From positions 78,779 through 142,778 of IMG/VR virus record IMGVR_UViG_3300026445_000027: a stretch of DNA of 64,000 bases. One strand, written 5' to 3'. The notes below the pieces were generated by a model, which saw only the letters and a list, made by a program, of their open reading frames with translations, had not been told where the DNA came from and made no database searches. Each line of letters starts with the position of its first letter. Within the stretch, counting starts at the first letter, position 1. This document shows, piece by piece, positions 35,931 through 38,066 of this stretch. The position numbers and the translations under genes were made by a program. The stretch comes from a virus.

Positions 35931-36135
35931 TTTATTACCCTACATAAAAAGGTTATCCAGTATAAATGCAAAAAAGAAAAGCATTACCTACCAGTACCTA
36001 AACCACATGGGCAAGGACTGGTAGGCTAAGCTTAACTACACTGGGATGCTATCAACTAACTAGGTCGAACCCTACAACGACCAGGTATGTGATTGAGCAA
36101 TACAATATAAAGTGCAGTTACAAAAAATAAAGTAT

Positions 36136-36447
36136 AACCCCACCCAATACCCCTAGACCAGGCGACAGTGTCGGCTAGGATCAGGGCATTGAGCAGGGGG
36201 AGGTTTTCTTTGGTTGCCTCAACAGCACAACCCAACCAGCGAATAACTAGGCAGACGATTACTGGTTGTTGCCTTAGGACCTCCTAACCTTTGGCAGGGG
36301 CAGGGGCTACAGCATGGGTCGAAGATACAAAGGAAGAGTGACGTACCAATTGAGAGGCACACCGGCCAGCAAACCTGACAACGGGTACATCACTCTGACT
36401 AGGCAAGCGAGGGCAAGCTTAGTCTACACGGCCGCTAGGTCCATGTT
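36136..36447 (-). ncRNA. Putative structured RNA(s) at the 3' end of the tRNA operon
   Basis: No credible ORF; 12-bp helix 36335-36346/36385-36396, crossing helices, long G-U-containing hairpin 36136-36205 followed by a U-tract. Confidence 0.45.
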
Positions 36448-36524
36448 TGGAAGAGGTAGATGGATTCGAACCATCGCATGACAGGATCAAAACCTGTTGC
36501 CTTACCGGGCTTGGCTATACCTCT
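36448..36524 (-). tRNA. tRNA-Gln (anticodon TTG)
   Basis: AGAGGTA/TACCTCT acceptor, ACAGG-TTTTGAT-CCTGT anticodon arm, GTTCGAATC, encoded CCA. Confidence 0.93.
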
Positions 36525-36529
36525 GTAAC

Positions 36530-36624
36530 TGGGGTGGTCTACGGGCTTTTACCGTACGTCGTGAGTAACAGGCCGGCCTCCAGACCTGTAACGGCTTTCT
36601 CAAAGTGGACCTTGGGAGAACACC
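36530..36624 (-). ncRNA. tRNA-like RNA A (95 nt)
   Basis: GGTGTTC/GACCACC acceptor-like stem, TACGG-TAAAAGC-CCGTA T-arm, CCA end; no canonical D or anticodon loop. Confidence 0.6.
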
Positions 36625-36631
36625 TTTGATT

Positions 36632-36707
36632 TGGCTCCACGTCCTGGATTCGAACCAGGGACCAACAGATTAACAGTCTGCTGCTCTACCGACTGAGCTA
36701 ACGTGGA
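36632..36707 (-). tRNA. tRNA-Asn (anticodon GTT)
   Basis: TCCACGT/ACGTGGA acceptor, GCAGA-CTGTTAA-TCTGT anticodon arm, GTTCGAATC, GCCA end. Confidence 0.95.
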
Positions 36708-36715
36708 AGAAATAT

Positions 36716-36831
36716 TGACGGTCCATTCGGGCTTTTACCGCACTTACTCATGAGCTTGCGGCTCAAGGGGGCCCGACCGTCCGGGCGCCGAGTGCTTTCT
36801 TTACCTACCAGGGTTCCTTGATCAATGGTCC
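36716..36831 (-). ncRNA. tRNA-like RNA B (116 nt), paralog of RNA A
   Basis: GGACCA/TGGACC acceptor-like stem, CGG-TAAAAGC-CCG T-arm, CAAGG and AGAAAGC motifs shared with RNA A, GTCA end. Confidence 0.55.
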
Positions 36832-36847
36832 TTTGTAGGTTAATATG

Positions 36848-36981
36848 TTGTTCGACCTGGTAAGGGGGAAGGGAGGCTCGTTTTATCCCCCGACTTGGAC
36901 CCATGCACCGTATGGACTACTGGGCGGCTCCTTTTAGTGTAGCCCGGCTGTACCCTACCGTCTTTCCACCAGATCAAACAA
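36848..36981 (-). ncRNA. Putative ~134-nt ncRNA closed by a 14-bp stem
   Basis: TTGTTTGATCTGGT/ACCAGGTCGAACAA, with two G-U pairs that form only on the minus strand. Confidence 0.55.
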
Positions 36982-36994
36982 ACTCTTGAATAAA

Positions 36995-37285
36995 GTATCC
37001 GTTCGCCACACCCGCGCTATTCGCATTCCGCAAGCGCGTCATGTACTTACATTCCCGTTGCCACGGATCACAGCAAAGCGCTCAGCGCGCTAGCACGGGA
37101 AAGAGTCCCCCTAGGACTTCTTGTGTGGGCTGCTTGCGCAATGCAAAGCCGCCCTGCGAGCCAACCTGACCGTCGGCTAAATGCCAGCAACAAGGTACCG
37201 TGACGAACCTTGTTGCCGGACTAGGTGTGTGTTCCTCAGCGCCCTTCGCCGCCCACAGCGCACCACCTTTGCTGAGGGACACACA
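36995..37285 (-). ncRNA. Putative ~290-nt highly structured ncRNA
   Basis: 15-bp and 13-bp hairpins, several short helices, possible pseudoknots; no credible ORF. Confidence 0.5.
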
Positions 37286-37287
37286 TT

Positions 37288-37427
37288 TGGTAGAGAGTAC
37301 ACGATTCGAACGTGTGGGCCCATAAGTGTCGTTGGCCGACACCCTGAGCACATCCGGTTTCATGTAAGGCCGCCCTAGGGTACGCCCACAATCCTCCAGA
37401 CTCCTTAAACCACTCGGACAACTCTCT
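37288..37427 (-). ncRNA. Expanded tRNA-Ser-derived RNA (140 nt)
   Basis: Perfect acceptor, Ser-type D arm TGTCCGAGTGGTTTAAGGA, T arm ACACG-TTCGAAT-CGTGT, ACCA end; 38-nt anticodon loop and 37-nt variable arm. Confidence 0.8.
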
Positions 37428-37444
37428 GTTAACTTTGTATAACA

Positions 37445-37603
37445 TAGGAAATCGGGACGGATCCCAGGGTAGAGCCCTGGTCTTACGCCGTAAGTATACG
37501 ACGCATTCTGGATCGCCCTCCGTCTTGAGGCTTTTCTTCCCTAAGTCTAGCCAACCCTGACGGCCGTTAGGCTAGAGAGTTAACCGCGACCCGGGTTTAT
37601 CCA
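37445..37603 (-). ncRNA. Putative structured spacer RNA
   Basis: Hairpins TCTAGCC/GGCTAGA, CCAGGG/CCCTGG, GACGGA/TCCGTC; non-coding. Confidence 0.35.
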
Positions 37604-37607
37604 AATA

Positions 37608-37693
37608 TGGTGCGAGAGACGGGCATCGAACCCGTATGGCCAGAAGCCGACAGATTTTAAGTCTGTTGTGTATACCAATTCCACCACACTCGC
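37608..37693 (-). tRNA. tRNA-Leu (anticodon TAA)
   Basis: GCGAGTG acceptor, GGAATTGGTATAC D loop, ACAGA-CTTAAAA-TCTGT anticodon arm, long variable arm, ACCA. Confidence 0.92.
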
Positions 37694-37801
37694 AGAACAC
37701 ACCGTTACATATCATAACCATGTGTAGTAAAAAGATAAGAGGAACTGCTCCAGATTGCGACATCCTTCACAATCCCTCTGTCACCTAGACCTCGGTAATA
37801 G

Positions 37802-38066
37802 TGTTAACCCTTTTACCGCCGTAAAGGCCCGCCTCATCAAACTCTCTGCTCACAACCATGCTGCCGGCCAGATCGAAATCCCAGGGCGGTCAGCACAGAA
37901 GAAGCCCAGTAGGAAAGTTTGGGTGACTTAGTGGGTTTGACGTTCCACTCATAGGTTCTGCTCAGAAAAGCTTGTCATCGCGATTCGTTGCATCATACAA
38001 CCACCGGCTCCACCTTAAGGTTCCGGCTGATCTCCTCAATGGGAGAATTCGGTTTAGGCGTTAACA
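37802..38066 (-). ncRNA. Possible ~265-nt ncRNA or leader at the start of the RNA island
   Basis: Non-coding, several hairpins, TGTTAAC/GTTAACA ends (palindromic, so weak evidence). Confidence 0.3.

What the first reader, a model, noticed from the sequence alone, without database searches (positions are those of the whole stretch)
36530..36831. Two paralogous tRNA-like RNAs with a novel shared architecture, flanking tRNA-Asn
Seen: RNA A (36624-36530) and RNA B (36831-36716) share the same layout. Each starts after AAA with GG, forms an acceptor-like stem with one mismatch, carries CAAGG and then AGAAAGC, has a variable stem domain (one hairpin in A, a three-way junction in B), then A(C/A)G, an identical T-arm core CGG-TAAAAGC-CCG, and a CCA or TCA end. 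Stems differ in sequence but keep pairing, which amounts to internal covariation. The loop keeps U54-A58 T-loop geometry but lacks TTC, so tRNA finders would probably miss it. No canonical anticodon loop is present. Inference: a new family of tRNA-shaped non-decoding RNAs.
Basis: partly seen in the sequence, partly recalled or inferred. Interest (0 to 1): 0.8.

Follow-up and report, generated by a model that had tools for sequence, protein, structure and literature searches.

The report
New small RNA family in phage tRNA arrays

Summary
RNA A (36624-36530) and RNA B (36831-36716) are real paralogues. They share CAAGG, AGAAAGC and an exact 13-mer, which is part of the only close direct repeat in the 64-kb window.

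With patterns and two covariance models I found 18 copies in about 14 lineages. All lie inside phage tRNA arrays on the tRNA strand. The hosts include complete 107-kb and 517-kb phage genomes that lack PhuZ. Nothing matches in Rfam 15, GenBank phages, 185,579 prokaryote genomes (strict B-type pattern only) or the searched papers.

The conserved core has these parts:
- an optional 5' hairpin (H1)
- AG-N-AA
- a variable hairpin or three-way junction (H2)
- a purine-rich linker
- a T-arm-like hairpin (H3): a 3-bp stem that covaries and a 7-nt loop, UAAAAG(C/U)

The B core is 93-99% identical between phages whose tRNA-Asn is only 79-83% identical.

The acceptor stem fails. It is no better than shuffles, shows no family-wide signal (mean z +0.06) and is broken in orthologues (A drops from 7/8 to 3/8 pairs).

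My best reading is an array-embedded RNA, probably released by tRNA processing, whose two motifs form a T-loop-based module like RNase P J11/12-P12-J12/13. That module matches 5 of the 6 core residues. Function is inferred only.

The scan noted a similar operon on another genome (e1-5380636).

The parts
36708..36840 (-). RNA B, full conserved block (H1 to tail), directly upstream of tRNA-Asn
   Evidence: The block is conserved in L003, L015 and L056. The GG..TCA element (36831-36716) is 89-96% identical, against 79-83% for tRNA-Asn. CM R1 scores it 75.9 bits.
36803..36840 (-). B hairpin H1: stem 36840-36835 / 36808-36803, loop contains CAAGG
   Evidence: RNAalifold on three orthologues. A C-G pair becomes U-G in L015 and L056, and all keep 6/6 pairs. 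An analogous 6-bp H1 with different sequence occurs in A and in L170 copy 2.
36794..36800 (-). B motif 1, AGAAAGC (AG-N-AA pentad plus 2 nt)
   Evidence: The first five letters read AGAAA in 16 of 18 aligned copies. L153 has AGUAA, and L154 is aligned as AUAAA with AGAGA/AGAUA just upstream. Copies found without requiring this motif still carry a version of it.
36741..36793 (-). B variable domain H2 (predicted three-way junction) plus purine linker
   Evidence: Folds. Across 12 lineages the H2 MFE z-score averages -1.49 (p 0.0016). For B itself the z is only -0.2 to -1.0.
36728..36740 (-). B hairpin H3: T-arm-like, 3-bp stem and 7-nt loop UAAAAGC
   Evidence: Exact 13-mer shared with A. The stem covaries in other copies: CGG/CCG, GGG/CCU, CAG/CUG.
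36708..36727 (-).
   Evidence: It can also pair 7/7 with the apical loop of H2, and that pairing is kept through a G-U change in L056. Tail versus H2 z is -2.1 to -3.9.
36525..36629 (-). RNA A, full block between tRNA-Asn and tRNA-Gln
   Evidence: CM R1 scores it 43 bits. The orthologue L056:2899-2995 is 85% identical. A is absent, together with tRNA-Gln, from the near-identical contig L003.
36600..36629 (-). A hairpin H1: stem 36629-36624 / 36605-36600, loop contains CAAGG
   Evidence: A compensatory G-C to A-U change is seen between the window and L056.
36594..36600 (-). A motif 1, AGAAAGC
   Evidence: The L056 orthologue has AGAAACA, so only the pentad is kept.
36555..36593 (-). A variable hairpin H2 plus linker
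   Evidence: The 12-position stem has 10/12 pairs in the window and 11/12 in L056, with three pair-preserving or pair-restoring changes. z is -1.1 and -3.1.
36542..36554 (-). A hairpin H3, identical 13-mer to B
36525..36541 (-). A 3' tail with ACCACCCCA, 5 nt before tRNA-Gln
36632..36707 (-). tRNA-Asn(GUU), canonical
   Evidence: ARAGORN and Rfam, 72.2 bits.
36448..36524 (-). tRNA-Gln(UUG), canonical; forms one indel cassette with RNA A
   Evidence: L003 lacks A plus tRNA-Gln, and the junction is at CCAAA repeats.

Best explanation
A and B are two paralogous copies of a previously undescribed family of roughly 70-130-nt structured RNAs that live inside the tRNA gene arrays of large phages, on the tRNA strand.

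Shown:
- The conserved unit is an optional 5' hairpin (H1), a single-stranded AG-N-AA pentad, a variable hairpin or three-way junction (H2), a purine-rich linker, and a T-arm-like hairpin (H3).
- H3 has a G-C closing pair, a 3-bp covarying stem and the 7-nt loop UAAAAG(C/U).
- The 5' and 3' flanks are lineage-specific. An acceptor-type closure is not a family trait.

Inferred:
- The RNA is made as part of the array transcript. It is set free by the cuts that mature the flanking tRNAs: RNase P at the downstream tRNA and 3' trimming of the upstream one.
- The two conserved pentads bracket H2 in the same order as RNase P J11/12-P12-J12/13. They pack into a T-loop-based tertiary module, either interdigitated T-loops or a T-loop filled by a purine from the AGNAA strand.
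- Through that module the RNA engages elbow-type recognition in tRNA biology. It either docks on tRNA elbows or offers an elbow-like surface to proteins that handle or attack tRNAs.

It does not decode.
For: Family and context:
- 18 copies in about 14 lineages, all in tRNA arrays on the tRNA strand.
- Eight copies were detected by model R1, which was built without them, at 15-34 bits.
- Carriers include complete 517-kb and 107-kb phage genomes with no PhuZ.

Selection:
- The B core is 93-99% identical, against tRNA-Asn at 79-83% and flanking DNA at 69-78%.

Structure:
- The H3 stem covaries: C-G to G-U, and G-C to A-U.
- H2 is structured across lineages: mean z -1.49, t-test p 0.0016, and more stable than the reverse complement in 9 of 12 lineages.
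- H1 is supported by a compensatory change in A and a wobble change in B.
- G-U pairs favour the tRNA strand.

T-loop reading:
- H3 has the G53-C61, U54, R57 and A58 equivalents in a 7-nt loop.
- Motif 1 varies as A-G-(A/U)-A-A. This fits AGNNA of the published AGNNA...UGNNA core (PMC3664808).
- The Rfam RNase P class A consensus reads ACAGAAA - P12 - GUGAAA in the same order.

Release:
- Spacers to flanking tRNAs are short: 5-8 nt downstream in the window and 5-27 nt in most copies.
Against: - No direct evidence of a discrete RNA. The metatranscriptome runs that hold the region also assemble the whole phage genome.
- The second pentad is UAAAA, not UGNNA, so one of the six defining residues of the double T-loop is not met.
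- The invariance of A2, A3 and G6 in the H3 loop is not explained by a plain T-loop.
- For B, RNAalifold prefers a fold in which the H3 stem strands pair elsewhere.
- H2 z-scores for B are weak.
- Most family members were found with patterns that required the H3 sequence, so its invariance is partly ascertainment. Only three copies (A in L056, L170 copies 2 and 3) were found free of any exact-pattern requirement.
- The L011/L090 copies sit at the end of an array before a protein gene, so downstream RNase P release is not universal.
Confidence: 0.55

Rival explanations
1. These are complete tRNA mimics, with an acceptor stem, a D-like arm, an expanded middle arm, a T-arm and an NCA end. They are recognised as tRNAs by RNase P and the CCA-adding enzyme and perhaps aminoacylated.
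For: - In this window both A and B can close with 7/8-pair stems that abut the T-arm-like hairpin.
- L016, L044 and L100 can also form 8-11-bp closures.
- A ends in CCA, and ACCACCCCA is conserved in its orthologue.
Against: - Closure energies are no better than shuffles.
- Family-wide tail versus 5' region z averages +0.06, p 0.78.
- The A orthologue keeps 3/8 pairs. B orthologues gain a bulge or two mismatches, while the core stays 93-99% identical.
- L162 has only 13 nt between the upstream tRNA and motif 1.
- The tRNA clan models give nothing at E<=10.
Confidence: 0.12
2. A trans-acting tRNA binder with a codon-like loop. The first six nucleotides of the H3 loop, UAAAAG, pair with the anticodon loop of tRNA-Lys(UUU) at positions 32-37. 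The pairing may be helped by elbow docking, in the manner of a T-box Stem I, and would mask, sense or recruit that tRNA.
For: - All five phage tRNA-Lys(UUU) genes in the held loci have the loop CUUUUAA, whose positions 32-37 are the exact complement of UAAAAG.
- The pattern of invariance (positions 1-6 fixed, position 7 C or U) fits six base pairs.
- The one variant loop, UACAAG in L170 copy 3, is the exact complement of the tRNA-Thr(UGU) loop CUUGUA seen in these arrays.
- tRNA-Lys is a frequent target of anti-phage nucleases (PMC10264068, PMC11464382).
Against: - Any loop of the form U-NNN-A-G complements some anticodon loop, so the match is weak evidence.
- Six mostly A-U pairs are weak.
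- The window's phage shows no tRNA-Lys gene in the 64 kb read.
- No covariation between loop and a partner tRNA could be tested.
Confidence: 0.1
3. A cis-acting leader for the downstream tRNA. The element guides folding, processing or stability of the tRNA that follows it and has no life of its own.
For: - Most copies end 5-27 nt before a tRNA or tRNA-like gene.
- A and tRNA-Gln are gained or lost together relative to L003.
- B-type copies always precede tRNA-Asn.
Against: - The downstream tRNA differs between lineages: Asn, Gln, Arg, Cys, Leu, Tyr, His.
- L011/L090 copies are followed by a T-run and a protein gene, and L159 by about 230 nt of other sequence.
- tRNA arrays are dense, so proximity is expected anyway.
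Confidence: 0.1
4. Decayed tRNA pseudogenes, or a small protein-coding or DNA-level element.
For: - They lie in tRNA arrays and keep a T-arm-like hairpin.
- In B, three of the four single-base changes in the core fall on silent third positions of a 68-codon frame (36904-36698). This is my reading.
Against: - The same non-tRNA motifs recur in unrelated phages, and B is more conserved than real tRNAs. That is the opposite of decay.
- The frame has no start codon in L015 or L056, runs into tRNAs on both sides, and is shifted by the 1-nt insertion in L015.
- Wobble pairs and the fold asymmetry favour an RNA on the tRNA strand.
Confidence: 0.04

Closest known systems
Bacteriophage T4 stable RNAs rnaC and rnaD (species 1 and 2 RNA) in the T4 tRNA region
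   Same: They are small non-decoding RNAs of unknown function encoded on the tRNA strand directly after a phage tRNA. From my own knowledge, they are made from the tRNA precursor transcripts.
   Different: There is no sequence or motif similarity. Models R1 and R2 find nothing in the T4 locus. T4 rnaC carries a canonical GGTTCGAATCC T-arm, whereas this family has UAAAAG(C/U) and the AGNAA motif.
[quoted passage not shown]
   Same: Two T-loop-type pentads. The first is AGNNA, and they are separated by a variable hairpin exactly as in RNase P class A (ACAGAAA - P12 - GUGAAA).
   Different: The second pentad is UAAAA instead of UGNNA. It sits in a closed hairpin loop. The RNA is a free-standing molecule of about 100 nt with no catalytic domain, specifier or terminator. 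No 3D evidence exists.
tRNA T-arm (RF00005)
   Same: A 7-nt loop closed by G-C, U at loop position 1, A at 5, a purine at 4, and a stem of 3 Watson-Crick pairs plus two further pairs that are G-A/A-A or Watson-Crick.
   Different: The loop has A-A where tRNA has psi55-C56. There is no D-arm GG, no anticodon arm and no conserved acceptor stem. The tRNA models do not match at E<=10.
GOLLD and ROOL large ornate RNAs
   Same: From my own knowledge, these are phage-borne structured RNAs of unknown function that are often found next to tRNA genes.
   Different: They are 500-800 nt with different motifs. Rfam models for them do not match here.

Membership tests
tRNA (Rfam RF00005 / ARAGORN) | Cloverleaf scoring above threshold with tRNA covariance or heuristic models | tested here: not met
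   ARAGORN finds only Gln, Asn and Leu. cmscan gives no tRNA-clan hit on A or B, even at E<=10.
tRNA (Rfam RF00005 / ARAGORN) | 7-nt anticodon loop with U33 and purine 37 | tested here: not met
   The apical loops of H2 are 3-11 nt and lack that pattern.
   The helix is not above shuffles. Family mean z is +0.06. It is broken in orthologues and there is no room for it in L162.
   Present in all 18 copies, and the stem covaries.
[quoted passage not shown] | First pentad AGNNA (A1, G2, A5 invariant) | tested here: met
   AGAAA or AGUAA in 17 of 18 copies. L154 is ambiguous (AGAGA/AGAUA upstream of the aligned site).
[quoted passage not shown] | Second pentad UGNNA (U1, G2, A5 invariant) | tested here: not met
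   UAAAA in 17 copies and UACAA in 1. U1 and A5 are kept, but position 2 is A. No UGAAA variant turned up in the viral scan.
[quoted passage not shown] | Reciprocal intercalation and stacked base triples in 3D; platform that stacks on G19:C56 | not testable with these tools
   No RNA 3D prediction or probing data is available.
Bacterial RNase P RNA | Catalytic domain (P4, CR-I/CR-V) and a match to RF00010/RF00011 | tested here: not met
   No Rfam hit in 36200-38000 at E<=10. The element is only about 100 nt.
T4 rnaC/rnaD | Sequence or profile similarity to the T4 RNAs | tested here: not met
   R1 and R2 give no hit in L014. Inspection agrees.
YrlA / Y RNA, tmRNA, other tRNA-like Rfam families | Match to the Rfam models | tested here: not met
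   ARAGORN finds no tmRNA.

The most novel reading that the evidence does not exclude
A free-standing, phage-encoded tRNA-binding RNA. It would be the fourth natural use of the double T-loop elbow dock, after RNase P, T-box leaders and the L1 stalk. The H3 loop may double as an anti-anticodon for tRNA-Lys(UUU). Such an RNA could grasp tRNAs in trans to protect, sort or titrate them during infection, for example against host tRNA-cleaving defences.
Probability: 0.15. Interest if true: 0.9.

Novelty: new variant of a known kind. Interest (0 to 1): 0.62.

Why it matters
Phage tRNA arrays are now seen as counter-measures to host tRNA-cleaving defences (PMC10264068, PMC11464382, PMC11555353). The non-tRNA RNAs inside them have been ignored since T4 species 1 and 2 RNA.

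This work defines a compact, widely distributed family with a sharply conserved core that selection holds more tightly than the neighbouring tRNAs. That gives a concrete RNA of about 100 nt to express, probe and pull down.

If the core is a T-loop module that binds or imitates the tRNA elbow, it would extend a motif known from only three cellular RNAs to a mobile viral RNA. It would also add a new layer to the phage-host conflict over tRNAs.

Tried and rejected
Searches that found nothing:
- blastn of A and B against 50,697 GenBank phages: no match.
- megablast of 14 kb around the island: only a tRNA-Asn hit.
- Rfam at gathering threshold and at E<=10: nothing for A or B.
- Scan of 185,579 prokaryote genomes with a strict core pattern: two hits, both in coding DNA without tRNAs.
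- Viral scan allowing G at loop position 2: no new member.
- Literature search for the loop sequence: only unrelated primers.
- R1/R2 in Pseudomonas phages D6 and Psa21, the T4 tRNA region and (R1 only) E. coli rnpB: nothing significant.

Chance hits:
- About 110 of the 119 hits from the first metagenome pattern were chance matches in coding DNA. L004-L010 and L013 were the same.

Folds that did not help:
- Whole-molecule MFE of A and B: z about 0.
- MAFFT misaligns A with B and the 5' part of the A orthologues, so I compared helices by hand.
- Tail pairing with H2 loops as a family-wide pseudoknot: strong only in B (mean z -0.55, p 0.08).

Transcription not shown:
- 16 soil metatranscriptome runs hold the island. 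Their contigs span the whole 190-240-kb genome, so transcription is not shown.
- The higher depth of the island contig in run X10 is only a hint.

Small ORF over B: rejected. It has no start codon in orthologues and a frameshift in L015.

Full report
**What is in the window.** On the minus strand, 36448-37693 holds three canonical tRNAs: Leu-UAA, Asn-GUU and Gln-UUG. The stretch has no credible ORF. RNA B (36831-36716) lies just upstream of tRNA-Asn. RNA A (36624-36530) lies between tRNA-Asn and tRNA-Gln. Both carry CAAGG, AGAAAGC and the exact 13-mer CGGTAAAAGCCCG in the same order. A search of all 64 kb for direct repeats with a 12-nt seed within 300 nt returns only this pair. Neither ARAGORN nor any Rfam 15 model, including the tRNA clan, matches A or B even at E<=10.

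**Genome.** The window is part of a 143-kb IMG/VR contig. PhuZ tubulin lies next to the island. Soil and compost runs assemble it into contigs of up to 243 kb. No close relative is in GenBank.

**Relatives of the phage.**
- A near-identical contig (L003) has B and tRNA-Asn but lacks A plus tRNA-Gln. The junction falls at CCAAA repeats.
- A phage with 73% identical PhuZ (L015) has B upstream of tRNA-Asn, followed by tRNA-Ile.

**Wider searches.**
- Pattern scans of the metagenome and viral collections gave mostly chance hits in coding DNA. Every hit inside a tRNA array, on the tRNA strand, had the same layout: L011, L016, L048, L056, L090, L100, L153, L154, L159, L162 and L170, plus L044 on a short contig.
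- Model R1, built from ten copies, then detected eight further copies that were not in its training set, at 15-34 bits. These include an A orthologue in L056 and two extra copies in L170.
- In all there are 18 copies in about 14 lineages.
- Carriers include complete genomes of 517 kb and 107 kb. None of the five non-clade contigs searched (G001, G003-G006) has PhuZ.
- A strict scan of 185,579 prokaryote genomes gave only two chance hits. GenBank phages gave none.

**Architecture.** The alignment shows two invariant blocks.
- The first is AG-N-AA, usually AGAAAGC but also AGAAAAC, AGAAACA and AGUAAGC.
- The second is a hairpin (H3) with a 3-bp stem and the loop UAAAAG(C/U), usually preceded by G and followed by AA.
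- The H3 stem covaries: CGG/CCG becomes GGG/CCU in one copy and CAG/CUG in another. The latter copy also has the only loop variant, UACAAGU.
- Between the blocks lies a segment of 35-59 nt with no sequence conservation that folds into a hairpin or three-way junction (H2). Across 12 lineages its MFE z-score averages -1.49 (t-test p 0.0016). The tRNA strand folds better than the reverse complement in 9 of 12.
- The two A orthologues differ at three H2 positions that keep or restore pairing, and the L090 insertion lengthens the stem.
- Upstream of the first block most copies have a local hairpin (H1). In A it is supported by a G-C to A-U compensatory change, and in B by a C-G to U-G change. Paralogues have different 6-bp stems. 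CAAGG lies in the H1 loop in A, B, L011 and L170 copy 2.

**Selection.** The B core is 93-99% identical among three phages in which tRNA-Asn is 79-83% and adjacent non-coding DNA 69-78% identical.

- Their energies are not better than shuffled controls.
- Over 14 lineages, pairing between the 3' tail and the 5' region has mean z +0.06, p 0.78.
- Orthologues do not keep them. A in L056 has 3/8 pairs after uncompensated changes. B in L015 has an inserted base, and B in L056 has two mismatches.
- In L162 the first block starts 13 nt after the preceding tRNA.

Only the T-arm-like hairpin is tRNA-like. For B, the tail can instead pair 7/7 with the apical loop of H2, a pairing kept through a G-U change. 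This is not general.

**What the core resembles.**
- H3 has the hallmarks of a T-loop hairpin: a 7-nt loop, G-C closure, U at position 1, A at 5 and a purine at 4.
- The Rfam consensus of RNase P class A reads ACAGAAA, then the P12 hairpin, then GUGAAA.
- The family has AG(A/U)AA, then a variable hairpin, then UAAAA. That is the same order and 5 of the 6 core residues, but with A instead of G at position 2 of the second pentad.
- Membership is therefore not claimed. A T-loop-based tertiary module is my preferred inference.

**An alternative reading of H3.** UAAAAG is the exact complement of positions 32-37 of the tRNA-Lys(UUU) loops encoded in these arrays. The single variant loop complements tRNA-Thr(UGU). 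The evidence is weak, because any U-NNN-A-G loop complements some anticodon loop.

**Expression.** Sixteen soil metatranscriptome runs contain the island. Their contigs cover the whole genome, so this does not show a discrete RNA. Release by the processing of flanking tRNAs is an inference from the 5-27-nt spacers.

**Comparison and novelty.**
- The nearest precedent in context is T4 rnaC/rnaD, with no similarity.
- I found no Rfam family and no paper describing these motifs.
It also found the odd RNAs better conserved than the tRNAs, and my results agree.
- I rate this a new variant of a known kind: structured RNAs resident in phage tRNA clusters. The family definition is secure. The function is open.

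Noticed in passing
window 36849-36985 (minus strand): A further structured RNA ('X') closed by a 14-bp helix. It is about 80% identical to unannotated DNA inside the tRNA clusters of Pseudomonas phages D6 (L001:1480-1620) and Psa21 (L002:1480-1620) and to Erwinia phage pEa_SNUABM_9. An inner stem covaries (GGGGG/CCCCC here, GGAGA/TCTCC in Psa21), and the closing helices differ in sequence. There is no Rfam match.
   Followed up: partly
window 37288-37427 (minus strand); L015:8560-8700; L056:2150-2290; L170:9200-9350: A roughly 140-nt tRNA-like gene with a perfect acceptor stem, a Ser/Leu-type D-arm and a canonical T-arm, but with about 85 nt in place of the anticodon and variable arms. It is conserved in all four related phages. 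ARAGORN misses it or miscalls part of it as tRNA-Gly in L015.
   Followed up: no
window 36448-36631 versus L003:4680-4690, L015:9274-9370, L056:2892-3085, L170:8480-8690: The slot between tRNA-Asn and the conserved CATGG..CTAGCGGCC block is a variable cassette site. It holds A plus tRNA-Gln here, nothing in L003, tRNA-Ile in L015, and a family copy plus an odd tRNA-like gene in L056 and L170. Each cassette ends in CCAAA.
   Followed up: partly
L056:2996-3080; L162:1820-1905; L170:8480-8560: tRNA-like genes with good acceptor and T-arms that ARAGORN does not call (irregular middle parts or insertions). Each lies directly downstream of a family copy.
   Followed up: no
window 36120-36445 (minus strand): The non-coding stretch after tRNA-Gln is conserved at 69-78% in L015 and L056 and is recognisable in L003 and L170. 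The island of conserved non-coding RNA therefore extends beyond the tRNAs.
   Followed up: no
window 36698-36904 (minus strand frame): Three of four single-base differences in the B core among relatives fall on silent third positions of a 68-codon frame. The frame lacks a start codon in relatives and is shifted in L015, so I read this as coincidence.
   Followed up: partly
window 37700-37740 and L015:8425-8470: A shared motif (CTTTTTACT ... TATGTAAC) about 20-60 nt upstream of the first tRNA of the island in both phages. It may be the phage promoter for the RNA operon.
   Followed up: no
L011, L090, L048, L056/L106: In four lineages the family copy follows a tRNA-Ser(GCU) gene. In L011 and L090 a conserved 5-bp/7-nt-loop hairpin lies between the two.
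   Followed up: no
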